From assembly GCA_028700115.1 (NCBI GenBank), contig JAQVTI010000004.1, forward strand, positions 25,585-57,584: DNA of 32,000 nucleotides, read 5' to 3'. Below, piece after piece: positions 3,838 to 31,425 of the stretch. The translations under genes were made by a program, and so were the position numbers. The notes under the pieces are model-generated. The model searched no databases, was not told where the DNA came from, and saw nothing but the letters and a program-made list of their open reading frames with translations. The DNA is from Candidatus Iainarchaeum sp. Its GTDB lineage: Archaea; Iainarchaeota; Iainarchaeia; Iainarchaeales; CSSED10-239. The number at the start of each line of letters is the position of its first letter. Positions within the stretch are counted from its first letter, which is position 1.

Positions 3838-3918
3838 AATTAATTCCTTTAAAAATTGTAAAATATAAAATATTTATAATCTATTATATTTATAATTGTT
3901 TTGTATATTTTTATAAAT

Positions 3919-4650
3919 ATGAATTTATTATATTTACCAATAATTATTATAACTATATTAATTTTAATAATAATTTCTATTCAAGATATTAAAAAAAGAG
4001 AAATTAATATATTTTATTTAATTTTTTTAGTGATTTTTAGTATTATTTATTTATGGGTTTTTATTTTTAAAAATGATTTAAATTTATGGTATTCTTATTT
4101 TTATCAATTAATAATTATTTTTGTATTTTTATTAATAATTTTTATATTAGGTAAACTAAGTAAATTTATATATATTGGAGAAGGAGATTTATATACTTTA
4201 TTTGCATTAAGTTTTACAAATATTTTCACTGAATTTTATATTTTAAGTATAATTATTTTATCTTTATTTATAACATTATTAATACCTTTATTTTTATTTA
4301 TATATAATTTATCTACATTTAATTTTCCAAAAAAACATGGTTTTTTTAAATCTATTATTTTAATGTTTTTAGGAATTAATATAAATATTAAAAAATTAAA
4401 TAACTTTTATTATTCTTTAGAAAAATTTTCCTTTAAAAATAATAAATTAAAATATATTATTTCTTTAAAACCAAATATATCTCCTGATAAAGAAATTAAA
4501 CAATTAAAAGCTTTTTCTAAAATACATAATATTAAGACAATATGGGTTTCTCCTTTAGTTCCTTTTGTAGTATCTATTACTTTAGCATATATTTTTATGT
4601 TTATTTTATCTTTTTATAATATTTTTAATATATTTATTTTCTTTTTATAG
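3919..4650 (+). CDS. archaeal prepilin/preflagellin peptidase (A24 family, FlaK/PibD-like)
   Basis: Polytopic membrane protein. The first catalytic Asp context is ISIQDIKKREI (D23 counted from the ATG at 3919) and the second is in YIGEGDLY (GxGD). An archaeal-type C-terminal extension is present. The ORF opens at 3901 (TTG) and the first ATG is at 3919. Confidence 0.75.
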   Translation: MNLLYLPIIIITILILIIISIQDIKKREINIFYLIFLVIFSIIYLWVFIFKNDLNLWYSYFYQLIIIFVFLLIIFILGKLSKFIYIGEGDLYTLFALSFTNIFTEFYILSIIILSLFITLLIPLFLFIYNLSTFNFPKKHGFFKSIILMFLGININIKKLNNFYYSLEKFSFKNNKLKYIISLKPNISPDKEIKQLKAFSKIHNIKTIWVSPLVPFVVSITLAYIFMFILSFYNIFNIFIFFL

Positions 4651-4767: not shown

Positions 4768-7599
4768 ATGGGTATTTTAGAAAAAATAGATATTATAGAT
4801 AAAAGAAATTCAATATCTACTAAAGATAATGTATCTAAATTATCTTTATTTGATAATATCTCAGAAAAGGATAGAAAAGTATATTCTATGGACTATACTA
4901 TAATTAAACCTTTATCAAAATTAGATGTTATTAATAAAAGTAATTTAGAAGTATCTTTAAAAAAAGATAATATTAATAATTATAATTTACCATTAGTTAT
5001 TCCTTCTGAAAAAATAATTTTTTCTAATAATTTACCATTAGTTATTCCTTCTGAAAAAATTGGTTTCTTAAATTCTAATTTTAAAGAATATATTAGTGTT
5101 TATAATAAATCTTTAAGTAAAAATAATTTTTTAAAAAAAAAAAATAAAAAAGAAAATTTAAATAATAATTATTTTATAACAGAAGAAGAACTTAAATCAA
5201 ATTTAAAATCTATAGCATATTTGTCTTTTTCTAAAGATAAATCTTCTATAAATAAGAAAACAAAATATCATTTTTCTAAAGATAATGTTGTTTCTGGAAT
5301 TAATTTTGATAAAAATAAAATTAAAGTAACAGAAGATATTGATGAGTTATTATCTGAATTAAATAAAAAGGCTTTAAATCTTGATAAAAAAGAAACTTTT
5401 TTAGAAGAATTTTCATTTTTAGAATCTAATCCAAAAGTTAATAAAATATCTTTAGATAATTATAAAATAAAACATCTTTATTCTAAAATAGACCAAATTT
5501 ATGAGAATATGGATAACTTAAATGTATTAGATCAAAGTTCTTTTTCTAAAAAAAATTTTATTAAAAATGATTTAAAAGATAAAAAAACAAATATAGAATC
5601 TAAAATAGGTATTTTTGAAGAAATTAAAGTCCCAGATATTTTTGTAATAAAAGATGATTCTAATAATTTAGAAGAAGTAATATCAAATGAATTTTCTAGT
5701 TATGAAAAGGATATTTCAAAAAAATCTACTATTCCTTTTTTTATATCTAAAGATAATGTATTAGATTTATCTGATGTTGTTTATAATTATATAAATAATT
5801 CTAAAAAAAATGCTTTTAATGATCCATCTAAAAAAATAAATATAAATTTAATATATAATAAAGCATTAAAAGATGATAATTATCTAAAAAATTTACTTTT
5901 AAATACAAAAAATACAACACAAATAAATAAAGAAAATGAAACTTTAAAAAATATTGAAAATAAATCAAAATTTTCTAAAAAGTCATTATTTAAAAATAAT
6001 ATTTTTAAAAAAGACAAATCTTTACAAGTTAATTTAAATGATTCTAATAAAAATTTAAATAATAAAAATTTAAATAATAAAAATTTAAATAATAAAAATA
6101 GATCTCAAAAATCAAATTATAAATTAAAGCCAAAATCAAATATAGATTATATTTTGCCAGTAAATGATTCTTCAAAAAATTTTGTAGTTAATAATTTTGA
6201 AAAGTCTATATCTCAAGATTTAATTTATTCTTTACCAATAAAAAATATAGATTTTTCTCAAAATAAAATTTATGAAAAATATTCTTTAGATGATTTTACT
6301 TTTGTAAATATTTATTTTGATAATTCTATAGGGCTTGTATATGATTTAATACAGCCAGAACTTAATAATAATCAACAAAAGTTATTTAATCAAATAAAAG
6401 ATATGTTTTATAATAATATAGATAAAGATTATTTTTATTTTAAAGGAGATTCTCATAAAATAAAAGAATATATTTCTAAAATATATGATGTTACTTTAAA
6501 TAAATTATCTTTTAAAATTAATTCTTTAGAAAGAAAACTTTTTTTAAAATTTATTCTTAGTGATTTTTCAGGTCTTGGTTTACTTTCAAGTTTATTAGAT
6601 GATTATAAAATTATTGAAATAAGTTGTAGTGGAGAAAATTCTTATTTATATGTGTATCATATAGAATATGGTCTTTTAAAAACAAATATTATATTTGAAG
6701 ATATTTTTAAATTAAATGAATTTGTTTTAAATCTTACAAAAAATATGGGGTTATATATTAGTTCTACAAATCCAATAATTGATGGATATCTCCCAAATGG
6801 TTATAAAGTAGAAGGAATTTATTCTACTGGAGATAGTAGTAGTAGAGGGTCTTCTTTTATTATTAAAAAATACTTGCAAAAATCAATAACTCCATGTGGT
6901 CTTGTAAATATAGGTGTTGGAATAAATGTTATTTTTGCATATTTTTGGCAAGCTATTGAAAATAAATATAAAATAATTATCACTGGAGAAGATGATAGTT
7001 TTATTATATATAATTCTATTGCTTTATTTTTCCCTCAAAAAAGAATTGTAAGTATACAAGATTATGATAAAATAATTTTACCACATAAAGAATGGGTTAA
7101 AAGAAAAGTATCTAAAAATGATGGGATTACAAAAAAAATATTAATTAATCAAACAAATTCTGAAAGACCAAATTATATAATACTTGATGTTTTTCAGAAA
7201 GATTTATTTAATTCTCAATGGTATAATATAGATTTATTTACTTGCCCTAAAAAAATACTTCCAGAAATAATAGAAAATCTAAATTCTGTTAATCAAAAAG
7301 CAATTATAATAGATATTAAGAGAATAAATTTTGGATATAGAGAATTAATAGAATTTAACACAGTTTTAGAAATTAATTCTAATCAAAAAAAAATATTTGA
7401 ATTTATTGTAAAAGATAAAGAATACCATGTAAATTTATTAAATTCTGATTTTAATATTATAGATATTAAAAATAAAGAGAAAGTTATAAATTGGTTATTA
7501 GAATCAAATATTTTTGATTATAAAGATTTTAATAATATTGTAAATGAATATTATATAGATAAAGATAATATTTTAAAAAAACTTGGAGTTGATAAATAA
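4768..7599 (+). CDS. FlaI/GspE-family secretion-ATPase homologue with degenerate nucleotide-binding motifs and a ~500-aa low-complexity N-terminal extension
   Basis: The C-terminal ~440 aa align with FlaI-type ATPases (IIEISCSG...YVYH..YG, NPIIDGYLPNG, SRGSSFIIKKY, AYFWQAIENKYKIIITG). The Walker A position reads GEDDSFIIY, Walker B reads RPNYIILDVFQKD, and the His box is absent. No GK[ST] occurs anywhere in the protein. Confidence 0.75.
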   Translation: MGILEKIDIIDKRNSISTKDNVSKLSLFDNISEKDRKVYSMDYTIIKPLSKLDVINKSNLEVSLKKDNINNYNLPLVIPSEKIIFSNNLPLVIPSEKIGFLNSNFKEYISVYNKSLSKNNFLKKKNKKENLNNNYFITEEELKSNLKSIAYLSFSKDKSSINKKTKYHFSKDNVVSGINFDKNKIKVTEDIDELLSELNKKALNLDKKETFLEEFSFLESNPKVNKISLDNYKIKHLYSKIDQIYENMDNLNVLDQSSFSKKNFIKNDLKDKKTNIESKIGIFEEIKVPDIFVIKDDSNNLEEVISNEFSSYEKDISKKSTIPFFISKDNVLDLSDVVYNYINNSKKNAFNDPSKKININLIYNKALKDDNYLKNLLLNTKNTTQINKENETLKNIENKSKFSKKSLFKNNIFKKDKSLQVNLNDSNKNLNNKNLNNKNLNNKNRSQKSNYKLKPKSNIDYILPVNDSSKNFVVNNFEKSISQDLIYSLPIKNIDFSQNKIYEKYSLDDFTFVNIYFDNSIGLVYDLIQPELNNNQQKLFNQIKDMFYNNIDKDYFYFKGDSHKIKEYISKIYDVTLNKLSFKINSLERKLFLKFILSDFSGLGLLSSLLDDYKIIEISCSGENSYLYVYHIEYGLLKTNIIFEDIFKLNEFVLNLTKNMGLYISSTNPIIDGYLPNGYKVEGIYSTGDSSSRGSSFIIKKYLQKSITPCGLVNIGVGINVIFAYFWQAIENKYKIIITGEDDSFIIYNSIALFFPQKRIVSIQDYDKIILPHKEWVKRKVSKNDGITKKILINQTNSERPNYIILDVFQKDLFNSQWYNIDLFTCPKKILPEIIENLNSVNQKAIIIDIKRINFGYRELIEFNTVLEINSNQKKIFEFIVKDKEYHVNLLNSDFNIIDIKNKEKVINWLLESNIFDYKDFNNIVNEYYIDKDNILKKLGVDK
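4983..5072 (+). repeat. 45-nt tandem duplication inside a CDS (NLPLVIPSEKI x2)
   Basis: The 33 nt taatttaccattagttattccttctgaaaaaat at 4983-5015 recur exactly at 5028-5060. Confidence 0.9.
6046..6099 (+). repeat. 15-nt tandem repeat aataaaaatttaaat, about 3.6 copies (NKNLN repeats) inside a CDS
   Basis: Exact copies at 6046-6060, 6061-6075 and 6076-6090, plus a partial copy to 6099. Confidence 0.9.
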
Positions 7600-8447
7600 T
7601 GTTTGGTAAAATATTATCACATATTTCTTTATTTTTATTTAAAGATATATTTATTAAATTACAAGATAATTTTAAAAATTTTTCAAAAGTTCTAAATTAT
7701 ATAAAAGTAAATGAAAATGCAGTATCTTATCTTTCAAATATTTTATTTATTTCTTTATTTTTAGTTATTGTTTTAGAGTTTATCTTTATATTTTTAATGG
7801 TTAAATTAAATATATATTTTAATATATTTAGTTTTTTTATAACTATATTTATATCATTTACAATTGGTTTAATGATTTTCTTAGTACTTTTTAAATTCCC
7901 ATATTATCTTTTAGATATAAAAAAAACAGAACTTGATATTGAATTTGAAAATAGTCTTAAACATTTATCTGTAATTTGTGATAATAAATTAAGTGTTTTA
8001 GATGTTTTAAGAATAATTATATCTATTGAAGATAATTATTTAATTTCTGAAAATACAAAAAAAATAATTACTAATTCTATAGATGATTTAAATTTAAAAA
8101 ATTCATTATTATATATTTCTGAAAATACCTTTTCAGAAATTGAAAAATTTTTTTTAATAAAATTAGTAGATGTTTTAGATAAGAAAGATAATTTAGAAGA
8201 TGTTGTTTTAAATTATTTAAATGAAATAGAATCTTCTAGAAAAGAATTAAGTGAACAAAGAAAAAGTAAAATAAATATTTTATTTCAAGTTAATATATTT
8301 ATTTTTTTAATTATAATAATATTATTAATTATAGTTTTTATAGTTCCAATAACTAATCAAACTATAAGACAATTATTAGGTTTTATTGCAATAATTCTTC
8401 CAATTATTGAATTTATTTTGATTTTAATTCTTTATAATAAAAATTAA
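7599..8447 (+). CDS. half-size FlaJ/TadB/TadC-like (T2SS-F type) pilus platform membrane protein
   Basis: N-terminal TM helices, a ~110-aa cytoplasmic helical domain (LKHLSVICDNKLSVLDVLRII...) and C-terminal TM helices. The start overlaps the upstream stop (TAATG at 7597-7601), which suggests coupling to the ATPase-like gene. Confidence 0.55.
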   Translation: MFGKILSHISLFLFKDIFIKLQDNFKNFSKVLNYIKVNENAVSYLSNILFISLFLVIVLEFIFIFLMVKLNIYFNIFSFFITIFISFTIGLMIFLVLFKFPYYLLDIKKTELDIEFENSLKHLSVICDNKLSVLDVLRIIISIEDNYLISENTKKIITNSIDDLNLKNSLLYISENTFSEIEKFFLIKLVDVLDKKDNLEDVVLNYLNEIESSRKELSEQRKSKINILFQVNIFIFLIIIILLIIVFIVPITNQTIRQLLGFIAIILPIIEFILILILYNKN

Positions 8448-8475: not shown

Positions 8476-9612
8476 ATGAGAATTTTTATGGATAAAAAGA
8501 AATTTTTGAAAATAAATACTTTTATTTTAAAAAATGAATATCAATTATTAACTTTATCTGGATTTCTATCTGGGCTTTTAATTTTATTTATTACAAATAA
8601 ATTTTTTTTTAAAAGTGAACTTTATTATTTATTATTCTTTTTTGGAATTATAGTTTCTTTTTTTGGGTTTGTTTTAGAATATTTTATTAAAAAATATAAA
8701 ACTAAATCTTTAGAAAAAGTATTTAGTTATTTTTTATCTGATTTATCTAGAGATTATAAAAAAACAAAAAATCTATCATTATCTTTAATTAATATTTCTA
8801 ATTCAAATGTTTATAAGGGGATAGATAATGATATTAAAAAAATATCTAATAGAGTATCTTGGGGGGATAGTTTTGAAAATTCTTTAAAATGTTTGAATTT
8901 TTCTTTAGATAGTGATATTTTAAATCATACTTTAATATTATTTAATAATTTAAAAAATACTTCACTTTCTTTAGATCAGATTTTTTTAAAAATTTCAAAA
9001 GATATAAATCTCTTTAGAGAAGATAAACAAAAAAAAAGATATTTTAGTCATTTATTTAATTTATCTATTGTGTTTTTTATAGTTTTTATATTTGTTTTAC
9101 TTTATCTAGATATATTAATTGGAAGTAATTTTTTATGGTATAATTATTTAGATTCTATGAATAGAATATTTTTTGATAACTTTATATTATATATTGCAAT
9201 TGTTTTATCTTTTTTTACAGCTTTTGTTATAAGTACTATAAAAGATAATAAATTTGGGGGTTATCTGAAATATATTGGAATTTTTTTTATAATTATTATA
9301 ATTTTATTTCAAATTGTAATTCCAAAACCAGAAGCTCAAGAAGTTTTAATTAGTACTATTAATTATATGAATCTTGAAGATATAGATTATTTTTATTTAG
9401 AAAATATTATATCTATACAATCTTTAAGTTCCAAATATATTTCAGAAAATACAACTGTAGATAGAGTTTATTTTAAACCTTTAGATGTAAATTTGTGTAA
9501 AGATACTTCTTGTTTAGAATATACTATTTTAATTAAAGATGCTTCTTTTTTTAATTTTGAATTAATTAAAGTAGACAAAAATATAATTATTTTATATGAA
9601 TATAATTATTGA
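8476..9612 (+). CDS. second half-size FlaJ/TadB/TadC-like platform membrane protein with a C-terminal extracytoplasmic extension
   Basis: Same TM, cytoplasmic-domain, TM layout as the upstream gene, plus a ~85-aa Cys-containing tail. An alternative ATG lies at 8488. Confidence 0.5.
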   Translation: MRIFMDKKKFLKINTFILKNEYQLLTLSGFLSGLLILFITNKFFFKSELYYLLFFFGIIVSFFGFVLEYFIKKYKTKSLEKVFSYFLSDLSRDYKKTKNLSLSLINISNSNVYKGIDNDIKKISNRVSWGDSFENSLKCLNFSLDSDILNHTLILFNNLKNTSLSLDQIFLKISKDINLFREDKQKKRYFSHLFNLSIVFFIVFIFVLLYLDILIGSNFLWYNYLDSMNRIFFDNFILYIAIVLSFFTAFVISTIKDNKFGGYLKYIGIFFIIIIILFQIVIPKPEAQEVLISTINYMNLEDIDYFYLENIISIQSLSSKYISENTTVDRVYFKPLDVNLCKDTSCLEYTILIKDASFFNFELIKVDKNIIILYEYNY

Positions 9613-9649: not shown

Positions 9650-9997
9650 ATGATTTATAAAATTGAAAAAAACAAAATTATTTTTAAAAAAATTAAACTC
9701 GCATTAAATCTTGGACAAATGAGAGGCTTAATGTTTTACCCAAGATCTAAATTTAATTTTGCATTAATTTTTGATAGAAGTTATGAAGACAAAATTAATT
9801 CTTCTCTTCATATGTTTTTTGTATTTTTTCCAATTGATGTTTTATTTTTAAATTCTAATAAAGAAATAGTTGATATTAAATTTAATTTTAGACCTTTTAG
9901 ATTTTATATTCCTAAAGAAAAAGCAAGATATGTTATTGAACTTCCTTGTTTAAAAAAAAATAAGCAATTAAAAATTAAACAAAAAGTTAATTGGTGA
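9650..9997 (+). CDS. DUF192 family protein
   Basis: MRGLMFYPR...LHMFFVFFPIDVLFLNSNKEIVDI...ARYVIELP matches the DUF192 pattern (GLM, Mxxxxx[PI]xD[IV]xF, YVLE). Confidence 0.6.
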   Translation: MIYKIEKNKIIFKKIKLALNLGQMRGLMFYPRSKFNFALIFDRSYEDKINSSLHMFFVFFPIDVLFLNSNKEIVDIKFNFRPFRFYIPKEKARYVIELPCLKKNKQLKIKQKVNW

Positions 9998-10114: not shown

Positions 10115-13100
10115 ATGATATATAATTTTAATAAAAAAATATCAATATCCCCATTAATTGCAGTAATTTTAATAATTTTAGTTGCATCAGTTTTAACTGG
10201 TGCAATTTTATCTTGGTCTAAATCCTCTATTAAAAATTCACTTTCAGATTCTTCTCAAATTTCTAATCAAAGTTTAAATATTTTAGAATGTAAGGATATT
10301 TATCTAAAAGTAGAGTCATTTACATATTATTCTGATTTAAATTATTTTAATTTACTTGTAACAAACACATCTAGTTATAAATTACAAAACCCACAAATAA
10401 CTATTTTAGGGATTGATAGTTTGGGAGAAGATATTAGACTTACAGGTAATTTTAATTCATCTTTAGATAAAGGAGAAACTAAAGTTTTTTCTACAAACTC
10501 AGTTGATTTTTATTTTTCTTTTCAAACACATGAAGTTTCTGATCTAAATTCAGATAATATTTCAGAAATTACATTTGTTTTTCAAACATGCCCTACAAAT
10601 ATTTTATATTTTAAAGATTGGGATATTATAGGTGCGATTGTAAGTGGTGAAACAACTCCAGTTGCTTTATTTGTTTTAGGTTTACATTATCTTTTTAATG
10701 AAGGAAGTGGAACTATTGTTAATGATTTATCTGATAATTCTTTAGATGGAGATTTAAATAGTGGTTTTTGGCAAACAAATGAAGTTGATATTAATTTTTT
10801 AAAATTAGATAATAGTTATAGGGATTCTTTAATAGTTGATGCAAATTTAAATGGTCTAGAAGATGATTCTGGATATAGTTATACTTTTACAAATTCAGGA
10901 TCTGTTGCTTCAATTAACCAAAATGGAGAGGCTATGGCTAGAGATTTTGATGGGGTTAGTGATTATTTAATAATTAATTCTCCAATTAAAGAAGATAAAT
11001 ATCCATTAACAGTTTCATTTTGGATAAATGCAGATTCATGGACTACAAATTATTATGCAGCAGGAGATTTATATTATTCTTGGCTTATAAATAAAAGGGA
11101 TAATGGTACAGATAGATGTTGGCAGTTTATGTTGTCTGATGGATATCCAAGAGTTGATATGTTTAATGATGCAGGAGATGGAATTGATGGAGATTTACAA
11201 TCTAATCAAATTATAACTTTAGAAGAATGGGTGCATATTCTTTTAACAACTGGAGGTCAAACAGGAGATTCTGCAAAAATATATCAAGATGGTGAATTAG
11301 TTTCTGAAGTAACTTTAACAGGAGATAGGCATTTAAGTTCAAGAGAAGTTGTAATTGGTGCTGCTGGTTGGTCTTTTGATTTATTTAATTTTGATGGAGA
11401 TATTTCTGATGTTAAGATTTGGAATAAAGAGCTTAGTGAAAGTGAAGTTAAAAGTGTGTATAATGAACAAAAATCAGATTATGTTACTTCAAATGATTCT
11501 AATAGTTTAGATTTGTCTGATGGGTTTACAATAAATGCATGGGTTAATACAAACAATTTAGATGAACAAACAATTGCTTCAAAAGAAAGTTTTAATACAA
11601 GTTTGTCTTCTGCAGATTTTGAAACATTTGATTTACAAACAATAAGTTCTAGTTATACTGGTTATTTTGATGAATATTTCGATGGGAGATATGTTTATTT
11701 TTTACCTTATCATAATGGATCTGTATATCATGATAAATTTTTTAGATATGATACTACAAAAGATTTTATTTCTTCTTCAAGTTATGAATTTTTTGATTTA
11801 AGTACAGTTAATTCAAAATGTACTGGATTTACAGGAATTTCTTCTGATGGTGATTATTTATATTTAAGTACCTATTCAGGAAGTATTAATGGATGTTTTT
11901 TAAAATATGATTTAAATTCTTCTTTTACATCTTCATCTAGTTATGAATTTATGGATTTAACTACTTTAGATTCTAGTTATAAAGGTTTATTTAGTAGTTT
12001 ATTTGATGGAAGATATGTTTATATGTTAGTATATAATAATGGTAGTTATACTGGTAAGATCATAAGATATGATACTTTATCTGATTTTACATCTTCATCT
12101 AGTTATATTGTTTTTGATTTATCTACAATTAATTCTTTGTATAAAGGATATGCTTCAATGATTTTTGATAATAGATATATTTATTTTATACCTTTTCATA
12201 ATGGAGTTAGACAGGGTAATTTTTTAAGGTATGATACATATGAATCTTTTACAGATTCATCAAGTTATGAATATTTTAATTTAGAAACTATAAATTCTAA
12301 TTATAAAGGATTTATTGGAGGTGTTTTTGATGGAACTTATGTTTATCTTGTGCCTTATACAAATGGTGATTATTTTTCAAGTGTTGTTAGATATGATACT
12401 TCTTTAGATTTTGATAATTCTAAAAGTTATTCTGTATTTGAATTAACTAATTTAAATTCAAATTATAAAGGATATAGAAGTGCTGTTTTTGATGGGAGAT
12501 ATGTTTATTTTGTGCCTCATAATAATGGATCCTATCATGGAAATTTAATAAAATATGATATTTCTAAAGATTTTTTAGAAAATTCTAGTTATTCTGTATT
12601 TGATACTTCTAGTTTAAATTCTGGTTTTAAAGGTTTTTTTGGTGGGCTTTATGATGGTAAATATTTATATTTGCAAGGTTATAGTGATCGATCTACTGGA
12701 ATTGTTGGAAGATATGATACTAGAGAAAATAATAATTTTAATTTTAAAATAAATTCATCTTCTCAAGATGGTATTAGTCAATCTAAACAAGGAATTAAAT
12801 TTAATTTAGATACAAATGAAGGTTATTATCAATTGTTTGATAATAATTATACTGAAACTGGTTGGCATATGTATTCTGCAAGTTATGATAATAATTTAAT
12901 GAAAATATATTATGATGGTAATCTTTCAAAAAGTAAACAAGTAAGTGGAGCTATAACTAGTACCATTTTAGATGATTTAATAATTGGAAAAACAAATACT
13001 GGTTTTTATGGACTTGATGGAAATATTTCTGATTTTAAAATATATGAAGAAGCTTTATCTGATGAAAATATTTCTGATTTATATGATCAAAATATAAATG

Positions 13101-13765
13101 ATTATCCTTCTAGTCCTTTTGGTTCACATCCAACTTTAGAAGAAGATTTAGTTTCTTATTATTCATTTGATGGAAACGCAGAAGATTCAAAAGGAACAAA
13201 TGATGGAATTTCTAATAGTGTTAATTATTCAACTATGAATGGAATAATAAATAGTGGTGCTGAATTTAATTCTAACAATGATAGTTATATTCAATATTCT
13301 TCAATAATAACTCCTAAAGGTGAAAAAAGTATTTCTATTTGGTTAAAAACTTCTCAAACTAGTTGGTGTAGTATTTTTAAAAATAATAGTGATGGTACTC
13401 AAAGTTATGGTGTTTCAATATATGGTTCTGGACATGTTGAACTTTCTCAAGCATCTTCAATTAAAGTTTTAGAAATTTCTCCTGTAGGTGATTTAAGAGA
13501 TGGAAATTGGCATCATTTAGTGTTTACTTGGGATGGAACTACTAATTCAGATACAGTTAAATTATATATTGATGGAATTTTAAATAATCAAAATACTGCA
13601 AATAATACTGAAACAGTAACTCCTTCATATAATTTAATTATAGGTAGATATACTAATGTTTATGATTATGATGGAGATATAGATGAAGTTGGTATTTGGG
13701 AAAGAGCTTTAACTCAAAAAGAAGTAATGGATATTTACAATCTTGGAAATGGGCTTTCTAGATAA
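10115..13765 (+). CDS. modular type IV pilin-like surface protein: class III signal peptide and pilin head, three LamG-like domains, 7 x ~54-aa repeat block
   Basis: N-terminus NKKIS/ISPLIAVILIILVASVLTGAILSW (archaeal Pilin_N type). Three LamG-type endings: FDGDISDVKIWNKELSESEV, LDGNISDFKIYEEALSDENI and YDGDIDEVGIWERALTQKEV. Confidence 0.75.
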   Translation: MIYNFNKKISISPLIAVILIILVASVLTGAILSWSKSSIKNSLSDSSQISNQSLNILECKDIYLKVESFTYYSDLNYFNLLVTNTSSYKLQNPQITILGIDSLGEDIRLTGNFNSSLDKGETKVFSTNSVDFYFSFQTHEVSDLNSDNISEITFVFQTCPTNILYFKDWDIIGAIVSGETTPVALFVLGLHYLFNEGSGTIVNDLSDNSLDGDLNSGFWQTNEVDINFLKLDNSYRDSLIVDANLNGLEDDSGYSYTFTNSGSVASINQNGEAMARDFDGVSDYLIINSPIKEDKYPLTVSFWINADSWTTNYYAAGDLYYSWLINKRDNGTDRCWQFMLSDGYPRVDMFNDAGDGIDGDLQSNQIITLEEWVHILLTTGGQTGDSAKIYQDGELVSEVTLTGDRHLSSREVVIGAAGWSFDLFNFDGDISDVKIWNKELSESEVKSVYNEQKSDYVTSNDSNSLDLSDGFTINAWVNTNNLDEQTIASKESFNTSLSSADFETFDLQTISSSYTGYFDEYFDGRYVYFLPYHNGSVYHDKFFRYDTTKDFISSSSYEFFDLSTVNSKCTGFTGISSDGDYLYLSTYSGSINGCFLKYDLNSSFTSSSSYEFMDLTTLDSSYKGLFSSLFDGRYVYMLVYNNGSYTGKIIRYDTLSDFTSSSSYIVFDLSTINSLYKGYASMIFDNRYIYFIPFHNGVRQGNFLRYDTYESFTDSSSYEYFNLETINSNYKGFIGGVFDGTYVYLVPYTNGDYFSSVVRYDTSLDFDNSKSYSVFELTNLNSNYKGYRSAVFDGRYVYFVPHNNGSYHGNLIKYDISKDFLENSSYSVFDTSSLNSGFKGFFGGLYDGKYLYLQGYSDRSTGIVGRYDTRENNNFNFKINSSSQDGISQSKQGIKFNLDTNEGYYQLFDNNYTETGWHMYSASYDNNLMKIYYDGNLSKSKQVSGAITSTILDDLIIGKTNTGFYGLDGNISDFKIYEEALSDENISDLYDQNINDYPSSPFGSHPTLEEDLVSYYSFDGNAEDSKGTNDGISNSVNYSTMNGIINSGAEFNSNNDSYIQYSSIITPKGEKSISIWLKTSQTSWCSIFKNNSDGTQSYGVSIYGSGHVELSQASSIKVLEISPVGDLRDGNWHHLVFTWDGTTNSDTVKLYIDGILNNQNTANNTETVTPSYNLIIGRYTNVYDYDGDIDEVGIWERALTQKEVMDIYNLGNGLSR
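11618..12727 (+). repeat. seven tandem ~54-aa (~162-nt) coding repeats, possibly a beta-propeller
   Basis: Units begin at aa 502, 557, 610, 664, 718, 772 and 826. Consensus: Y.xFDLxTxNSxYKGxxxxxFDGRYVYxVPxxNGxxxGxxxRYDTxxDFxxSSS. Confidence 0.8.
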
Positions 13766-13772
13766 AAATATA

Positions 13773-13782
13773 TTTTATAAAT
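13773..13782 (+). promoter_or_regulatory. TATA-box-like element ttttataaat upstream of pilin gene 2
   Basis: It lies inside a ~85-nt block (13766-13850) that is nearly identical to 15042-15125. Its centre is about 27 nt before the ATG at 13806, consistent with a leaderless or very short-leader mRNA. Confidence 0.5.
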
Positions 13783-13805
13783 ATTTTCTTTTATCTTAAT
13801 AGTAT

Positions 13806-15041
13806 ATGTTATATAAAGTTAAATCAAAAAAAGCAATTTCTCCTGTAATTGCAATTATTTTTATAGTTCTAATTGCAGCGATTTTAACTGGAGCTATGCT
13901 TTCTTGGTCTAAATCTTCAACTAAAGATAAATTAGAAATAACTTCTAAAGAATCAAGACAAATAGTTGATGATTTAACTTGTAGTGATATAGAATATTCA
14001 ATTGAAGATGTTGTAATTGATACTAGAACAAAAGATTTTAATTTTTTATTTTTTAATAATTCAACAATTAAACTTTATAACCCAAAGATAACTATTTTAG
14101 GAAAAAGTTTATCTGGTGAAGACTTAAGATTTGTTGGAGAGTTTAATTCTTCTATAGATAAAATGGAAAGTAAAACTTTTTCAACAACTTCTGATTTTAA
14201 TTATTCTTATCAATCTCATGAAACTGATCAATTAGATGTTGATTCAATTGAAGAAATTACAATTGTTTTTAATACATGTCCAAATAAAATATTTTTAATA
14301 GATACATATGAAACAATTACTTCTGCAGAACCATCTCCTTATTTTAGCGGGCATTCAACTTTAGATAATAATATAGTTGCATATTATTCATTTGATGGAA
14401 ATGCAGAAGATCAAGTTGGAACTTGTGATGGAACAGTTAGTGGTGCATTAAATAGTTCTAGTTATGGTTTAATTAATCAAGGTTATAGATTTGATGGGGA
14501 TTGGGATTATATTAATTTAGGAAAAAATAATGCAATTGAATCTTTATTTGATCCAGGAAATAGTTTTTCTATATCTTTTTGGATGTATTCTTTAGAGAAT
14601 GTAACTTCTAACTGGAGATGGGTTTTAAGTAAAGCATATACTTCTCATACACCTCCATATTATCAATTTGATTTTAAATTAAATAGTATTGGATCTATGT
14701 CTTCTGTACTTTATAATGATTCTGTATCTATTTATTTAGGAGATTCTGATTCTAGTTATGAAGAATATAATAATTGGAATTATGTTGTAATTACAGTTGA
14801 TTTAACTAATAATATATATAATATATATATTAATAATAATTTATTAGTAACAGATACTACTCCTGAAGGAACTTATACAAATTATGATACTGAACTTGCA
14901 ATTGGTAGAAATATTAAATTTAATAATAATTCAGTTTATGATTTTTATGGTTATATTGACGAAGTTGGAATTTGGGAAAGAGAATTAACCCAAGATGAAG
15001 TTTCTGCATTATATAACTCTGGAAATGGTCTTTCTAGATAA
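13806..15041 (+). CDS. modular type IV pilin-like surface protein: class III signal peptide and pilin head plus one LamG-like domain
   Basis: KSKKA/ISPVIAIIFIVLIAAILTGAMLSW; the head module is paralogous to genes 1 and 3. LamG features are YYSFDGNAED, FSISFWMY and YGYIDEVGIWERELTQDEV. Confidence 0.75.
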   Translation: MLYKVKSKKAISPVIAIIFIVLIAAILTGAMLSWSKSSTKDKLEITSKESRQIVDDLTCSDIEYSIEDVVIDTRTKDFNFLFFNNSTIKLYNPKITILGKSLSGEDLRFVGEFNSSIDKMESKTFSTTSDFNYSYQSHETDQLDVDSIEEITIVFNTCPNKIFLIDTYETITSAEPSPYFSGHSTLDNNIVAYYSFDGNAEDQVGTCDGTVSGALNSSSYGLINQGYRFDGDWDYINLGKNNAIESLFDPGNSFSISFWMYSLENVTSNWRWVLSKAYTSHTPPYYQFDFKLNSIGSMSSVLYNDSVSIYLGDSDSSYEEYNNWNYVVITVDLTNNIYNIYINNNLLVTDTTPEGTYTNYDTELAIGRNIKFNNNSVYDFYGYIDEVGIWERELTQDEVSALYNSGNGLSR

Positions 15042-15048
15042 TGATATA

Positions 15049-15058
15049 TTTTATAAAT
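15049..15058 (+). promoter_or_regulatory. TATA-box-like element ttttataaat upstream of pilin gene 3
   Basis: Same conserved cassette as at 13773-13782. Its centre is about 26 nt before the ATG at 15080. Confidence 0.5.
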
Positions 15059-15079
15059 GTTTTCTTTTATTTTATTATT

Positions 15080-17731
15080 ATGTTATGTAAAGTTAAATCA
15101 AAAAAAGCAATTTCTCCAATAATAGCAGTAATTTTAATTATTTTAATTGCATCTGTTTTAACTGGAGCTATTTTATCTTGGTCTAAATCTTCAACTAAAG
15201 AAAATATGGCTTTAACCTCTAAGGAGTCAAGAGAAATTGTAAGTGATTTAACTTGTAATGATTTAGTTTATTATATTGATTCTATAGATTTTAGATATGC
15301 AACAAATGATTTTACTTTTTTAATAGTAAATAATTCTTCACAAAAACTTTTTTTTCCAAAAATAACTGTTTTTGGAAAAACTTTATCTGGGGAAGATATT
15401 AAATGGGTTGGAGAGTTTGAAGATTATATAGATAAAGCACAAACTAAATCTTTTTTAACATCTTCTGAGAATTTCACATATACTTCTCAAACACATACAA
15501 CAAATATAGATGAAAATAGTTTAAGTGTAAATCTTGTTTTTCAAACATGTCCTAATAAAATTATAACAATTAATAGTTATGATGTTATTTATCCTGTTTG
15601 TGGAGATTCTTTATGTGAAGGAGATGAAACTTCTGAAAATTGTTATTCAGATTGTGGAAGTTGTGGGGATAGTGTTTGTTCTGCTCCTGATGAAAATTTA
15701 GATACTTGTGCAATTGATTGTGCGGTTTGTGGAGATGGCATTTGTTCTTCAAGTGTAGAAAACACAGCTTCATGTTTACAAGATTGTCCTCCTAATTATT
15801 TTTCTTCAACTTGGAATACAGCAACTACTGGATATGGTTCAAGTGCTTCTAATCAAATAAATCTTCCTTTAGTTTCAAGTGGAACTTATGATTTTAATGT
15901 AAATTGGGGAGATGGTTCAGTTTCACAGATTACTTCATATAATGATCCTGATAAAACACATACTTATGCTTCTTCAGGGATTTATGATGTGAATATGTGG
16001 GGAACTATTGAAGGTATTTCTTTTGAATATTCTAGTGATAGGTATAAATTAACTGAAATTTCTCAATGGGGAGATTTTAGTCCTAAAAATAGTAAATTTA
16101 GTTATTGTGAAAATTTAGATATTACAGCAACTGATATTTTGGATTTAACTGGAGTTACAAGATTAATTTGTTTTTTTTGTAATTGTTCAAGTTTAACTCA
16201 AATTCCAAATATAGACCAATGGGATGTTTCAAATATTACAGATATGTCTAGTTTGTTTGCTGGTACTTCTTTTAATCAAGATCTTTCTTCTTGGGATGTT
16301 TCAAATGTTACTGATATGTATGGGATGTTTTCAAATACAAATAATTTTAATCAACCTTTAAATAGCTGGGATGTTTCTAGTGTAACTGATATGGGATCTT
16401 TATTTTTAAATGCAGATGCTTTTAATCAACCTTTAAATAACTGGGATGTTTCTAATGTTACTAATATTAATAATATGTTTAATAATGCAGATGCTTTTAA
16501 TCAACCTTTAAATAATTGGGATACATCAAATGTAACTACACTATATGGAACTTTTGCTGAAACTTTAGCATTTAACCAATCTTTAAATGATTGGAATACA
16601 TCTAAAGTAACAACTTTTGAAAAAATGTTTTATGGAAGTGAATCTTTTAATGGTGCAGTTAATAATTGGGATACATCTAATGTGACTACCATGAATGGTA
16701 TGTTTCAAAATGCTTATGTTTTTAATCAACCTTTAAATGATTGGAATGTTTCAAATGTAACTAATATGGGTTATATGTTTAAAGAAGCATATGCTTTTAA
16801 TCAAGATTTAGATCAATGGGATATTTCTAGTTTAAGTAATATTTTTCAAATGTTTTCAGGAGCAATTAATTTTGATGGAAATATTTCAACATGGGATGTT
16901 TCAAATATAACTTATCTTGGTGATTTATTTAATTGTAATATATATAGTCAACATCTTGGTACTTTTATTACAGGTTGTCATTTTAATCAAGATATTTCTT
17001 CTTGGGATGTTTCAAATGTTACTAGTATGTCTGGTTTGTTTGAAAATCAAGTAGATTTTAATCAACCTTTAAATGATTGGGATGTTTCAAATGTAACTAA
17101 TTTGAGTGGTATGTTTAATGGTGCTAAATCTTTTAATCAACCTTTAAATGATTGGAATACTTCTAAAGTAACTAATATTAGACATATTTTTTATAATGCA
17201 AATTCATTTAATCAAGATTTAAATAATTGGGATACTTCAAATGTTTCAGATATGTCTTATGTGTTTATGATGGCTAATTTATTTAATGGAGATGTATCTA
17301 CATGGGATACTTCAAATGTAACTTCAATGGATTGGATGTTTTATTCTGCTGATTCATTTAATCAACCTTTAAATAATTGGGATACTTCTAAAGTTACTGA
17401 AATGGATTGGATGTTTTATTCTGCAGATAATTTTAATCAACCTTTAAATAACTGGGATGTTTCAAATGTAACTGATATGAGTTTTATGTTTAATGATGCT
17501 AAATCTTTTAATCAAGATATAGGTGATTGGAATACTTCTAAGGTTACTAATATGAATAGTATGTTTTATTCTTTAGATTATTTTAATCAAGATCTTTCTT
17601 CTTGGGATATTTCTAAAGTGACTTCTAGTTTTACTGCCTTTTTTTATGGAACTAGTGTGTCAGCAGCAAACTGTCAAGCAATGGCAACTGCTTGGGGAAA
17701 AACTTGTGCAGATTTAGGATGTACTTGTTAG
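15080..17731 (+). CDS. modular type IV pilin-like surface protein: class III signal peptide and pilin head, 3 CGDxxC Cys-rich repeats, DUF285/BspA-like repeat array
   Basis: MLCKVKSKKA/ISPIIAVILIILIASVLTGAILSW. The ORF opens at 15041, but the conserved promoter and 5' cassette shared with gene 2 place the start at 15080. Downstream are a VNWGDGS...HTY segment and then repeated FNQPLNNWDVSNVTxMxxMF units. Confidence 0.75.
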   Translation: MLCKVKSKKAISPIIAVILIILIASVLTGAILSWSKSSTKENMALTSKESREIVSDLTCNDLVYYIDSIDFRYATNDFTFLIVNNSSQKLFFPKITVFGKTLSGEDIKWVGEFEDYIDKAQTKSFLTSSENFTYTSQTHTTNIDENSLSVNLVFQTCPNKIITINSYDVIYPVCGDSLCEGDETSENCYSDCGSCGDSVCSAPDENLDTCAIDCAVCGDGICSSSVENTASCLQDCPPNYFSSTWNTATTGYGSSASNQINLPLVSSGTYDFNVNWGDGSVSQITSYNDPDKTHTYASSGIYDVNMWGTIEGISFEYSSDRYKLTEISQWGDFSPKNSKFSYCENLDITATDILDLTGVTRLICFFCNCSSLTQIPNIDQWDVSNITDMSSLFAGTSFNQDLSSWDVSNVTDMYGMFSNTNNFNQPLNSWDVSSVTDMGSLFLNADAFNQPLNNWDVSNVTNINNMFNNADAFNQPLNNWDTSNVTTLYGTFAETLAFNQSLNDWNTSKVTTFEKMFYGSESFNGAVNNWDTSNVTTMNGMFQNAYVFNQPLNDWNVSNVTNMGYMFKEAYAFNQDLDQWDISSLSNIFQMFSGAINFDGNISTWDVSNITYLGDLFNCNIYSQHLGTFITGCHFNQDISSWDVSNVTSMSGLFENQVDFNQPLNDWDVSNVTNLSGMFNGAKSFNQPLNDWNTSKVTNIRHIFYNANSFNQDLNNWDTSNVSDMSYVFMMANLFNGDVSTWDTSNVTSMDWMFYSADSFNQPLNNWDTSKVTEMDWMFYSADNFNQPLNNWDVSNVTDMSFMFNDAKSFNQDIGDWNTSKVTNMNSMFYSLDYFNQDLSSWDISKVTSSFTAFFYGTSVSAANCQAMATAWGKTCADLGCTC
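15599..15793 (+). repeat. three tandem ~21-22-aa Cys-rich coding repeats (CGDxxC-x7-8-C-x3-C)
   Basis: CGDSLCEGDETSENCYSDC, CGDSVCSAPDENLDTCAIDC and CGDGICSSSVENTASCLQDC. Confidence 0.8.
16201..17645 (+). repeat. about 19 tandem ~25-aa (~75-nt) DUF285-type coding repeats (bacterial surface protein 26-residue repeat)
   Basis: 19 occurrences of W[DN][VTI]S[NKS] spaced 24-25 aa apart, with one longer unit. Most carry an N-[VI]-T sequon. Confidence 0.85.
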
Positions 17732-28840: not shown

Positions 28841-29578
28841 ATGTTAGATTTTTCTTTTTTAAAAAAGCAAAAAAAAATAATTTTTCAATTTATAATTTCT
28901 TTTTTTATAATCTTTTTTATGTATCTTTGTTTTTCAATTTATTATGATTTTTTTAATATAAATTTTATAATATATATATTTTTTGCAACATTTTTAATGT
29001 TTTTTTCAATAAAATATTTTATAAAAAAAATAAAAGAACATAGTTATAATCAAAAAATAATTTCAGAAATTCCATTTTTTTTGATAAATATTTCTAATGA
29101 TTTAGAAAGAAATTTATCTTTAAAAACATGTCTTGAAAATAGAAGTGATAATACTATTATTGGTAAAAAAATTAGAACTGCATTAAATCTAGTTAAAAAT
29201 TATGGATTTACTTTAAATCAAGCATTATTAAAAGTTTCAAAAGAAAGTAAAGATTTAAGTGTTGTTTTTTATCAATTAGAAGATGTTTTTTCACTTGGGG
29301 GTAAAGATAGAGTTAGTTCTTTAAGAATTTTATGTGATTCTTTTATTGAAAAGCAAATGAATAATTTTAGAAGTTCTTCTTCTAAAATTAATTTTTTATC
29401 ATTAATATTTATTGTTTGTTCTGCAATTGTTCCTGCAATATTTTTGATTTTTACACTTGTAGGAAGTAATTTTTTAGCAATGTCTTTTAGTGCTTTTACA
29501 ATTATATTTTTTACTGTAATTATTTTTCCATTAATAGATATGTTTATTCTTTTGATTATGAAATCAAAATTTGTTTAG
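28841..29578 (+). CDS. half-size FlaJ/TadB/TadC-like platform membrane protein (locus 2)
   Basis: Two N-terminal TM helices, a cytoplasmic helical domain (IPFFLINISNDLERNLSLKTCLE...LNQALLKVS) and C-terminal TM helices. Confidence 0.5.
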   Translation: MLDFSFLKKQKKIIFQFIISFFIIFFMYLCFSIYYDFFNINFIIYIFFATFLMFFSIKYFIKKIKEHSYNQKIISEIPFFLINISNDLERNLSLKTCLENRSDNTIIGKKIRTALNLVKNYGFTLNQALLKVSKESKDLSVVFYQLEDVFSLGGKDRVSSLRILCDSFIEKQMNNFRSSSSKINFLSLIFIVCSAIVPAIFLIFTLVGSNFLAMSFSAFTIIFFTVIIFPLIDMFILLIMKSKFV

Positions 29579-29694
29579 ATTATAAAAATTTATTATAGGG
29601 TGATTTTATAAAAAAAATAAGTTTATTAAAGTTTTTTCAAAATATATTTTTTTATAAGACTAATTTAAATAGAAAGTTATATATTTTAGATTTT

Positions 29695-31305: not shown

Positions 31306-31425
31306 CTTTTTTTAATATTTTTATAAATACCTTTAAATACTTTTATCTACTTTAATATTTATAGTTAAAGCAATTTCTTTTTAATAATTTTAAAAATTAA
31401 ATGTTTTATCTGTTTAATGTATTTT

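What the first reader, a model, noticed from the sequence alone, without database searches (positions are those of the whole stretch)
6880..7300. FlaI-family protein with every nucleotide-binding motif degenerate (probable pseudo-ATPase) at the head of the pilin operon
The fold-defining segments are conserved: IEISCSG, YVYH..YG, NPIIDGYLPNG, RGSSFIIKKY and AYFWQAIENKYKIIITG. The Walker A site is GEDDSFIIY (6985-7011) instead of GxxGSGKTT. IEDxxEL is IQDYDKI. Walker B RPDxIxxGEIR is RPNYIILDVFQKD (7165-7203). The His box is gone. The paralogue at 25800 retains all four motifs, so this is a specific loss and not a lineage quirk. The protein cannot be expected to hydrolyse ATP. It may be a scaffold, a regulatory subunit or a partner in a mixed hexamer.
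Basis: seen in the sequence. Interest (0 to 1): 0.8.

Follow-up and report, generated by a model that had tools for sequence, protein, structure and literature searches.

The report
Conserved dead pilus ATPase in Iainarchaeota
A 943-residue protein in the pilus gene cluster of a tiny DPANN archaeon keeps the full shape of the motor ATPase that normally drives pilus assembly, has lost every residue needed to bind or split ATP, and is still strictly conserved across its phylum, so a supposedly universal motor has become a non-catalytic part.

Summary
ORF 4768-7599 (+) encodes 943 aa. Residues 501-943 are homologous to archaeal secretion ATPases (afGspE 2OAP, E 2.4e-39; FlaI, E 1e-24). An AlphaFold model (pLDDT 94) superposes on afGspE with TM 0.83. 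The P-loop is physically deleted: GK is missing and acidic residues replace it. The Asp-box Glu is Gln, the Walker B GE is D-x, the His box is deleted, and the conserved arginines are Lys or Ser. No P-loop exists anywhere else in the protein.

It is not a decaying gene. The same degenerate motifs occur in about 18 protein clusters and 17 species genomes of Candidatus Iainarchaeota. Gene order is fixed: prepilin peptidase, dead ATPase, two PilC-like platform genes, DUF192. dN/dS is 0.03-0.16, like ribosomal protein L10e. About 49 new family-specific residues are conserved, and a 350-690 aa N-terminal tail carries three conserved linear motifs unique to the family.

An intact ATPase fused to a ferredoxin domain, with its own platform genes, lies 10-18 kb downstream, or directly adjacent in one genome. 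The most likely role is a non-catalytic hexamer-type scaffold on the platform, with energy supplied in trans; that role is inferred, not shown. I found no description in the literature searched. I rate it a new variant of a known kind.

The parts
3901..4650 (+). Prepilin (class III signal) peptidase, the first gene of the cluster
   Evidence: Pfam Arc_PepC_II E 2.2e-11 and Peptidase_A24 E 2e-4. It sits directly upstream of the dead ATPase in 15 of the 17 related genome loci, in L001 and in L033.
4768..7599 (+). Whole gene of the catalytically dead GspE/FlaI-like protein (943 aa). It has no predicted transmembrane segment.
   Evidence: ORF. The start is supported by the conserved N-terminus M-x-x-L-K-K-I. 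It is identical to NCBI MDD3178318.1, 'hypothetical protein [Candidatus ainarchaeum sp.]'. The hydropathy scan finds no TM segment.
4768..6267 (+). N-terminal extension (aa 1-500). It is low-complexity and Lys/Asn/Ser-rich, has no known domain, and evolves faster than the rest.
   Evidence: No Pfam family. dN/dS is 0.2-0.8 against 0.03-0.16 for the rest of the protein. Length varies from 346 to 688 aa among members.
5338..5496 (+). Conserved linear motif block 1 (aa ~191-243): IDxLLxEL..KT...F.E.FSFL.D.PKV.KI....Y....LYSKID
   Evidence: Invariant L198, E213, S216, F217, P222 and L237 in alignment A3. The motifs occur only in proteins that lack Walker A, among 285 fetched.
5614..5658 (+). Conserved linear motif 2 (aa 283-297): EEIxVPDIxxIKDD
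   Evidence: Invariant P289 and D296. The motif is also present in the distant orthologue P0022 ('VEEINVPSLEVIKDEG').
6142..6165 (+). Conserved linear motif 3 (aa 459-466): DYILPxD
   Evidence: Invariant P464.
6268..6927 (+). N-terminal domain of the ATPase fold (aa 501-720). It is well conserved, but the two conserved arginines are Lys (K680, K700).
   Evidence: Aligns to afGspE residues 110-340 and FlaI residues 34-337. 21 of 27 canonical apolar/Gly/Pro columns are kept. R680 to K in 100% and R700 to K in 88% of members.
6928..7596 (+). RecA-like C-terminal domain (aa 721-943). The fold is retained but the catalytic site is erased.
   Evidence: AF2 pLDDT is 89-98 across the domain. Foldseek gives 2OAP TM 0.83 and FlaI TM 0.75 over about 490 columns. 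Only 5 of 29 canonical polar/charged columns are kept. The C-terminus gives a weak PilB3_C hit.
6985..7011 (+). Former Walker A: GEDDS--FIIY. The Gly-Lys pair is deleted and the site is acidic.
   Evidence: All 18 members carry the 2-3 residue deletion. In the model, strand 235-240 is followed by a helix starting at 242.
7054..7074 (+). Former Asp box: IQDYDKI. Glu is replaced by Gln in 100% of members, and the second Glu is lost.
   Evidence: E764Q; E768 variable.
7165..7203 (+). Former Walker B: RPNYIILDVFQKD. Gly is replaced by Asp in 89% of members. The catalytic Glu position is variable (Val here). The following Arg, Gly and Glu are lost.
7222..7245 (+). Site of the deleted His box. A 6-7 residue deletion sits after the family-specific W818-Y819.
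   Evidence: gap in all members; canonical H at 93% becomes variable.
7599..8447 (+). PilC-like platform protein, half 1 (282 aa). Its start overlaps the dead ATPase stop codon (TAATG).
   Evidence: Pfam T2SSF E 5e-7. Overlap shown, and the same overlap occurs in L033. Conserved neighbour. dN/dS 0.05-0.17.
8476..9612 (+). PilC-like platform protein, half 2 (378 aa)
   Evidence: Pfam T2SSF E 8e-5, just below the Pfam cut-off. Conserved neighbour. dN/dS 0.10-0.17.
9650..9997 (+). DUF192 protein, the invariant last gene of the conserved core
   Evidence: Pfam DUF192 E 6e-11. Present after the platform genes in all related loci long enough to show it.
10115..17731 (+). Three large pilin-like surface proteins carrying LamG or DUF285 domains. 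This is the variable cargo of the cluster.
   Evidence: Their N-termini read KKxISPxIAxI plus a hydrophobic helix. They give weak Pilin_N hits, E 0.003-0.01. Laminin_G_3 E 1.7e-56 and DUF285 E 5e-208. Pilin-like genes occupy this position in 7 related loci (L003-L005, L008, L009, L016, L028) and are absent in L012-L015 and L017-L019.
25800..27548 (+). Intact secretion ATPase with an N-terminal 2x[4Fe-4S] ferredoxin domain. It is the candidate energy source.
   Evidence: Pfam T2SSE E 1.3e-35 plus Fer4 families. Motifs are intact. The family is widespread in Iainarchaeota. It lies directly after DUF192 in L010 and in the same macro-synteny in L028-L030.
28841..30513 (+). Two platform-like membrane proteins of the second module (245 and 272 aa)
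   Evidence: T2SSF E 6e-5 for 29695-30513. Orthologues of both are annotated T2SSF in L029 and L031.

Best explanation
The gene encodes a pseudo-enzyme. It descends from an archaeal PilB/afGspE-type pilus assembly ATPase and keeps the complete two-domain fold, but it can no longer bind or hydrolyse ATP.

Shown:
- The phosphate-binding loop is deleted and replaced by acidic residues.
- The Asp-box and Walker B carboxylates, the His box and the conserved arginines are all substituted.
- The protein is nevertheless as strongly constrained as housekeeping genes across Candidatus Iainarchaeota.
- It has gained about 49 new family-specific conserved residues and a long tail with three conserved linear motifs.
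- It is always encoded between the prepilin peptidase and two PilC-like platform genes, and its stop codon overlaps the start of the first platform gene.

Inferred:
- It still assembles on the cytoplasmic face of its cognate platform, probably as a ring like its active relatives.
- It serves as a static scaffold or adaptor, and its disordered tail recruits partners through the linear motifs.
- Any energy needed to extract the pilin-like adhesins from the membrane comes in trans from the intact ferredoxin-fused ATPase module. That module is conserved 10-18 kb downstream and is fused to the cluster in one genome.

The confidence of 0.65 is for the whole statement. For the shown part alone (a conserved, selected, catalytically dead homologue) I would give about 0.9. 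For the inferred platform scaffold with energy supplied in trans I would give about 0.35.
For: Homology and fold:
- PDB phmmer gives 2OAP E 2.4e-39 and FlaI E 9e-25.
- The AF2 model has pLDDT 94.2 and pTM 0.90.
- Foldseek gives 2OAP TM 0.83 and FlaI TM 0.75.

Loss of the site:
- Motif columns in 18 members against canonical proteins.
- Column statistics: R680K, R700K, E764Q (100%), R798S, G807D, with E808, R810, E813, H827, R837 and R861 lost.
- Only 5 of 29 canonical polar columns are kept in the C-terminal domain.
- No P-loop anywhere in 14 full-length members.
- Pfam T2SSE is not matched.

Selection and breadth:
- A distinct cluster at 520-800 bits (plus one 223-aa fragment at 230 bits), with canonical proteins at 226 bits or less, in 1.84 billion representatives.
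- 17 species genomes, including the complete Forterrea genome.
- dN/dS 0.03-0.16 for both fold domains. Neighbours and L10e/NDK give 0.04-0.25.
- A distant orthologue, P0022, sits in the same gene order. Its catalytic residues are substituted but the deletions are not yet present.

Context:
- Fixed order peptidase / dead ATPase / platform a / platform b / DUF192.
- TAATG overlap with the first platform gene.
- The Fer4-ATPase module is adjacent in L010 and syntenic in L028-L030.
- The tail motifs occur only in proteins without Walker A.
Against: - No experiment or multimer model supports ring formation, platform binding, or cooperation with the ferredoxin-fused ATPase.
- The two modules share only 25% identity between their ATPase-like proteins. 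Their platform proteins show no significant similarity. They are therefore ancient and could be independent machines.
- In one MAG (L018) the dead ATPase is intact and constrained, but both platform genes are missing from the 21.5 kb held. That is awkward for an obligate platform partnership.
- The high-confidence model depended on an alignment in which 67 of 86 sequences are canonical ATPases. A 3-sequence alignment gave pLDDT 47.
- I could not count all ATPase genes in any complete genome, so another active ATPase of the same subfamily elsewhere is not excluded.
Confidence: 0.65

Rival explanations
1. It is a subunit of a mixed hexamer. Dead subunits alternate with the intact ferredoxin-fused ATPase (25800-27548) and tune or gate its activity, as inactive paralogues do in some other ring ATPases.
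For: Both genes are conserved in the same genomes and in conserved macro-synteny. In L010 they lie in one uninterrupted gene array. The overall fold is the same.
Against: Identity between the two is only 25% over about 200 residues, and they belong to different subfamilies. Each has its own pair of platform genes, and these are not detectably similar. The N-domain arginines that would be expected to complete a neighbour's site are Lys in the dead protein. Hetero-oligomerisation of such distant paralogues is not known in this superfamily (my own knowledge).
Confidence: 0.12
2. It has a function that no longer involves the pilus platform at all. Examples would be a cytoplasmic scaffold or a regulator that uses the tail motifs and the re-tooled former nucleotide pocket to bind another ligand or protein.
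For: About 49 new family-specific conserved residues cluster around the former active site: Q764, Q773, K774, S798, D807, F809, F814, W818, Y819. L018 keeps the gene but lacks the platform genes nearby. Pilin genes are absent from the locus in about half of the genomes.
Against: The gene sits between the peptidase and the platform genes in 16 of 17 genomes and in the distant L033. Its stop overlaps the platform gene's start. The structural (apolar/Gly/Pro) columns of the N-terminal domain are largely retained, 21 of 27.
Confidence: 0.15
3. It is still a nucleotide-dependent motor that uses a non-canonical site.
For: Several members keep a Glu at the catalytic Walker B position (D-E-F). Lys replaces the arginines conservatively.
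Against: The P-loop is physically absent and acidic. There is no P-loop elsewhere. The catalytic Glu position is V, N, Y, H, Q, D or E across members, and the window protein has Val. Five further phosphate- or water-coordinating residues are lost.
Confidence: 0.03
4. It is a decaying pseudogene or an annotation or assembly artefact.
For: Two metagenome contigs (L001, L002) show the gene split or frameshifted. NCBI calls it 'hypothetical protein'.
Against: The ORF is intact at 788-1226 aa in all 16 genome loci read (L003-L010, L012-L019) and in the window (L011 is too short a contig). dN/dS is 0.03-0.16, equal to the neighbours and to the ribosomal protein gene. The same substitutions are fixed family-wide.
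Confidence: 0.01

Closest known systems
afGspE, the Archaeoglobus fulgidus secretion ATPase (PDB 2OAP)
   Same: It is the best sequence match (E 2.4e-39) and the best fold match (TM 0.83, RMSD 3.9 A over about 490 columns). It has the same N-domain plus RecA-like C-domain and the same C-terminal helical end.
   Different: afGspE has intact Walker A, Asp box, Walker B and His box and was crystallised with AMP-PNP. The window protein has none of these. It also has about 35 fewer residues in the C-domain and a 500-aa N-terminal tail.
FlaI/ArlI, the archaellum motor ATPase (PDB 4IHQ/4II7; NCBIfam NF058587)
   Same: Same superfamily and fold (E 9e-25; TM 0.75).
   Different: It is not an orthologue: 130 bits against a 550-bit cut-off. 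No archaellin or ArlH/ArlJ-type context is present. FlaI is an active ATPase.
Haloferax PilB3-PilC3 and Methanococcus Epd-type ('system 1') pilus cores
   Same: The gene set is peptidase, ATPase-like gene and pilins with a Pilin_N-type N-terminus. There is a weak PilB3_C match at the C-terminus. Two separate platform genes are present, as described for system 1 in methanogens and DPANN (preprint 10.64898/2026.04.22.720090).
   Different: Those systems have a catalytically competent ATPase. Neither the 2016 census (PMC4858521) nor the 2026 preprint mentions inactive ATPases.
Non-catalytic or weakly catalytic partners of filament motors, such as ArlH/FlaH of the archaellum and TadZ/CpaE of Tad pili (named from my own knowledge, not tested here)
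   Same: They are analogous in logic: a nucleotide-fold protein that organises or regulates the machine rather than powering it.
   Different: They have different folds (KaiC/RecA-like and MinD/ParA-like) and still bind nucleotide. Here the motor ATPase itself has been converted and the site is deleted.

Membership tests
PilB/GspE/FlaI/VirB11 secretion ATPase superfamily (Pfam T2SSE, PF00437) | Significant sequence homology to members | tested here: met
   2OAP E 2.4e-39, FlaI E 9e-25, CpaF E 1.5e-5. NCBIfam FlaI model E 1e-37.
PilB/GspE/FlaI/VirB11 secretion ATPase superfamily (Pfam T2SSE, PF00437) | Match to the curated Pfam T2SSE model above its gathering score | tested here: not met
   No T2SSE hit at E<=1. 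The relatives P0001 and P0002 also carry no precomputed Pfam domain.
PilB/GspE/FlaI/VirB11 secretion ATPase superfamily (Pfam T2SSE, PF00437) | Two-domain fold (N-terminal domain plus RecA-like C-terminal domain) | tested here: met
   AF2 pLDDT 94.2. Foldseek TM 0.83 to 2OAP and 0.75 to 4IHQ. Caveat: the alignment was dominated by canonical members.
PilB/GspE/FlaI/VirB11 secretion ATPase superfamily (Pfam T2SSE, PF00437) | Walker A P-loop GxxGxGK[ST] | tested here: not met
   GEDDS--FI. Gly-Lys is deleted in all 18 members and there is no P-loop elsewhere.
PilB/GspE/FlaI/VirB11 secretion ATPase superfamily (Pfam T2SSE, PF00437) | Asp box (IEDxxEL) acidic residues | tested here: not met
   E764Q in 100% of members and E768 lost.
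PilB/GspE/FlaI/VirB11 secretion ATPase superfamily (Pfam T2SSE, PF00437) | Walker B with catalytic Glu (hhhhGE) | tested here: not met
   G807D. Position 808 is Val in the window protein and variable in the family.
PilB/GspE/FlaI/VirB11 secretion ATPase superfamily (Pfam T2SSE, PF00437) | His box | tested here: not met
   A 6-7 residue deletion, with the His position variable.
PilB/GspE/FlaI/VirB11 secretion ATPase superfamily (Pfam T2SSE, PF00437) | Genomic association with a PilC/GspF-type platform and a prepilin peptidase | tested here: met
PilB/GspE/FlaI/VirB11 secretion ATPase superfamily (Pfam T2SSE, PF00437) | Hexameric ring and ATP hydrolysis | not testable with these tools
   No multimer prediction and no assay were available.
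FlaI/ArlI orthologous group (archaellum motor) | Score above the NCBIfam NF058587 equivalog cut-off, and archaellum gene context | tested here: not met
   130 bits against 550. The neighbours are a peptidase, split platform genes, DUF192 and pilin-like adhesins.
Pseudo-enzyme (catalytically dead homologue retained by selection) | Loss of catalytic residues together with purifying selection and conservation across species | tested here: met
   (loss). (dN/dS 0.03-0.16, like the neighbours). (about 18 clusters, 17 genomes, fixed synteny).

The most novel reading that the evidence does not exclude
Iainarchaeota build or anchor their pilin-like adhesins with a type IV filament core whose own motor has been converted into a permanently locked ring. 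The acidic residues that replaced the P-loop and Walker B (D742, D743, D807) would pair with the lysines that replaced the arginine fingers (K680, K700). That pairing would mimic the nucleotide-bound closed state without nucleotide. The dead ring would act as a static stator or adaptor that recruits partners through its tail motifs. The ferredoxin-fused ATPase module would supply redox-gated energy in trans. This would be the first type IV filament machine with a division of labour between a dead ATPase ring and a live one.
Probability: 0.2. Interest if true: 0.85.

Novelty: new variant of a known kind. Interest (0 to 1): 0.62.

Why it matters
An active hexameric ATPase is treated as one of the four universal core parts of every type IV filament machine. 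That view covers pili, archaella, type II secretion and competence systems, and it is restated in the 2026 census preprint. Here a whole archaeal phylum keeps a dead copy of that ATPase in its main pilus cluster, under selection as strong as on ribosomal proteins.

This raises three points:
- The ATPase scaffold has a function separable from catalysis.
- Automated annotation over-calls a motor. JGI labels relatives 'VirB11/archaellum biosynthesis ATPase'.
- It poses a concrete question about how DPANN cells, which may depend on surface contact, power or anchor giant pilin-like adhesins.

The protein is small enough for recombinant tests.

Tried and rejected
- The first homologue search with the single protein returned only 3 hits, because low-complexity words saturated the prefilter. 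The full HMMER scan with a 3-sequence profile solved this.
- The first AF2 run with 3 sequences gave an unusable model, pLDDT 47. It was redone with 86 sequences.
- A search with the distant degenerate orthologue P0022 returned only canonical ATPases, so no second dead clade was found.
- The AFDB fold library was not available.
- Model coordinates are not exposed, so the salt-bridge 'nucleotide mimic' idea could not be checked.
- Platform proteins of the two modules show no significant pairwise similarity. A recent whole-module duplication is therefore rejected.
- The other proteins in the hit list that lack my Walker A regex turned out to be fragments, intein-containing ATPases (P0056, P0119, P0122), or only mildly deviant (P0094; P0111 has GK to GR and GE to GD). 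They are not members of this family.
- Literature searches found no description of an inactive ATPase of this superfamily in archaea.
Full report
**What is there**

The window is extremely AT-rich, 13-28% GC. The protein is identical to NCBI MDD3178318.1, 'hypothetical protein [Candidatus ainarchaeum sp.]'. Relatives come from Candidatus Iainarchaeota (Diapherotrites, DPANN), including the complete genome of Candidatus Forterrea multitransposorum.

**Homology and fold**

- Residues 501-943 match the archaeal secretion ATPase afGspE (PDB 2OAP, E 2.4e-39), FlaI (E 9e-25) and, weakly, CpaF.
- The NCBIfam FlaI model scores 130 bits, far below its 550-bit equivalog cut-off.
- Pfam's T2SSE model does not match at all. 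Only a weak PilB3_C hit at the extreme C-terminus appears.
- With an 86-sequence alignment, AlphaFold2 gives pLDDT 94.2 and pTM 0.90.
- Foldseek places the model on afGspE (TM 0.83, RMSD 3.9 A over about 490 columns) and on FlaI (TM 0.75).
- A caveat applies. 67 of the 86 sequences are canonical ATPases, and a 3-sequence alignment gave pLDDT 47.
- The protein is therefore a genuine member of the superfamily by descent and fold. It is closer to afGspE/PilB3-type pilus ATPases than to FlaI.

**The catalytic site is erased**

The table gives the state of each catalytic element.

| Element | Canonical | Window protein and family |
|---|---|---|
| Walker A | GTATGKTS | GEDDS--FI; a 2-3 residue deletion removes Gly-Lys in all 18 family sequences |
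| Asp box | IEDTxEL | IQDYDKI; the first Glu is Gln in 100% of members and the second is lost |
| Walker B | hhhhGEVRGxE | IILDVFQKD; Gly to Asp in 89%; the catalytic Glu position is V/N/E/D/Y/H/Q |
| His box | GHxGxxTxHA | removed by a 6-7 residue deletion |

- In the model, the strand KIIITG runs almost directly into the following helix, so no phosphate-binding loop remains.
- Every conserved arginine of the canonical proteins is replaced: R680K, R700K, R798S, and R810, R837 and R861 lost.
- In the C-terminal domain only 5 of 29 canonical polar or charged columns survive, against 13 of 30 apolar ones.
- In the N-terminal domain 21 of 27 apolar columns survive.
- No [AG]x4GK[ST] exists anywhere in 14 full-length members.

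**It is not decaying**

- A profile search of 1.84 billion representative proteins finds a sharply separated group. 16 hits, including the window protein, score 520-800 bits. A 223-aa fragment (P0019) scores 230 bits. The best protein outside the family scores 226 bits.
- All members carry the same degenerate motifs.
- Seventeen species-level genomes carry the gene. All 16 genome loci long enough to read (L003-L010, L012-L019) hold an intact ORF of 788-1226 aa.
- Nei-Gojobori dN/dS between the closest pairs is 0.04-0.16 over the C-terminal 445 residues.
- Split by region, dN/dS is 0.03-0.16 for the dead RecA-like domain, 0.05-0.13 for the N-domain and 0.2-0.8 for the N-terminal tail.
- The neighbouring platform genes give 0.05-0.17, ribosomal protein L10e gives 0.08-0.13 and NDK gives 0.05-0.07.
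- About 49 positions are conserved in the family but differ from canonical proteins. Many surround the former site: Q764, Q773, K774, S798, D807, F809, F814, W818, Y819.
- This pattern indicates re-tooling of the domain rather than relaxed selection.
- A distant orthologue, P0022, lies in the same gene order: UPP synthase, peptidase, P0022, two platform genes.
- P0022 has its catalytic residues substituted but not yet deleted. This suggests that substitution came first and the deletions followed.

- The first 500 residues form a low-complexity tail with no known domain.
- Tail length varies from 346 to 688 aa among members.
- Three short blocks in the tail are conserved:
  - FSFLxDxPKVxKI...NLYSKID
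  - EEIxVPDIxxIKDD
  - DYILPxD
- Among 285 proteins fetched, these motifs occur only in proteins that lack Walker A.

**Context**

- The conserved core is prepilin peptidase (3901-4650), the dead ATPase, two PilC-like half-size platform genes (7599-8447 and 8476-9612) and DUF192 (9650-9997).
- That order is fixed in the related genomes.
- The dead ATPase stop codon overlaps the first platform gene's start (TAATG). The same overlap is seen in L033.
- Three giant pilin-like proteins with LamG or DUF285 domains follow in the window.
- This cargo is variable and is absent from the locus in about half of the genomes.
- The gene is therefore the second gene of the cluster, not its head.

**The intact paralogue**

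- ORF 25800-27548 has all four motifs and an N-terminal 2x[4Fe-4S] ferredoxin domain.
- It is only 25% identical to the dead protein and belongs to a different subfamily.
- It is followed by its own two platform-like genes.
- This module is widespread in Iainarchaeota.
- It lies in the same macro-synteny in L028-L030 and directly after DUF192 in L010.
- The platform proteins of the two modules are not detectably similar, so the modules diverged long ago.

**Mechanism**

What is shown:
- The protein is catalytically dead and, by prediction, structurally intact.
- It is strongly selected and locked into the peptidase-platform gene cluster.

What is inferred:
- It still docks on its platform, probably as a ring, and acts as a scaffold or adaptor whose tail motifs recruit partners.
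- The ferredoxin-fused ATPase supplies any energy in trans.

Rivals:
- A mixed hexamer with the live ATPase is less likely, given the 25% identity and the separate platforms.
- A platform-independent function is hinted at by L018, where the platform genes are missing nearby.
- Residual non-canonical catalysis is very unlikely.
- A pseudogene is refuted.

I could not run multimer prediction, read model coordinates, or count ATPase genes in a complete genome.

**Comparison with what is known, and novelty**

- The 2016 census of archaeal type IV pili (PMC4858521) contains no mention of Walker motifs or inactivation.
- The 2026 preprint on archaeal TFF machineries describes DPANN 'system 1' loci with two platform genes and treats the ATPase as a universal energy-providing core. 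It does not mention inactive ATPases.
- Searches for pseudo-ATPase, degenerate Walker A or catalytically inactive PilB/GspE found nothing comparable.
- Public annotation calls the protein either 'hypothetical' or an ATPase.
- I therefore rate it a new variant of a known kind: a phylum-wide pseudo-enzyme derived from the type IV filament motor.

**Verdict**

- The functional role remains an inference.
- Interest is 0.62.

Noticed in passing
window 25800-27548: An intact secretion ATPase is fused to an N-terminal 2x[4Fe-4S] ferredoxin domain. The same architecture occurs in dozens of Iainarchaeota and other DPANN protein clusters. The Aap pilus of Sulfolobales has a separate Fe-S protein (AapX) of unknown function, so this fusion may point to a redox-linked control of pilus ATPases.
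   Followed up: partly
window 10115-17731: Three large proteins (1216, 411 and about 880 aa) have nearly identical archaeal pilin-type N-termini (KKxISPxIAxI plus a hydrophobic helix). They also carry LamG or sevenfold DUF285 domains. GC in this stretch is 23-28%, against 13-19% in the flanks.
   Followed up: partly
window 15041-15082: The mechanical ORF start at 15041 adds a hydrophobic leader (MIYFINVFFYFIIM) before the pilin-type signal. The real start is probably the Met at 15080, which precedes the conserved CKVKSKKAISP segment at about 15083.
   Followed up: no
window about 4980-5060 and 6040-6090; P0012: The tail of the dead ATPase contains tandem repeats: 'NLPLVIPSEKI' twice and 'NKNLN' three times. 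P0012 has about eight copies of 'PQELPIVI' at the corresponding place, so this is a repeat-expansion hotspot.
   Followed up: no
L018 9002-11922: In one MAG the dead ATPase is followed directly by DUF192. Both platform genes are absent from the 21.5 kb held, yet the ATPase-like gene is intact and constrained.
   Followed up: partly
L010 4173-14110: In one genome the two modules form a single array: peptidase, dead ATPase, two platform genes, DUF192, ferredoxin-ATPase, two platform genes, VTT. The L10e-MTase-NDK block has moved upstream.
   Followed up: partly
window 9650-9997 and all related loci: A DUF192 (COG1430) gene is an invariant member of the cluster, directly after the platform genes. 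Its role in a pilus locus is not described in the papers read.
   Followed up: no
window 27647-28798: A 383-aa protein with no Pfam match and one hydrophobic segment sits between the live ATPase and its platform genes. A 327-aa gene occupies the same slot in L029/L030. The slot is empty in L010, L028 and L031.
   Followed up: no
P0056, P0119, P0122, P0111 (canonical relatives): Three archaeal ATPases carry an intein inserted in the P-loop right after GTATGK. P0111 has Walker A GK to GR and Walker B GE to GD, and may be another, milder, inactivated ATPase.
   Followed up: no
window 31234-31306 and 31425-31509: tRNA-Asp (GTC) and tRNA-Ser (GCT) genes, which explain the higher GC at the window's end.
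   Followed up: yes
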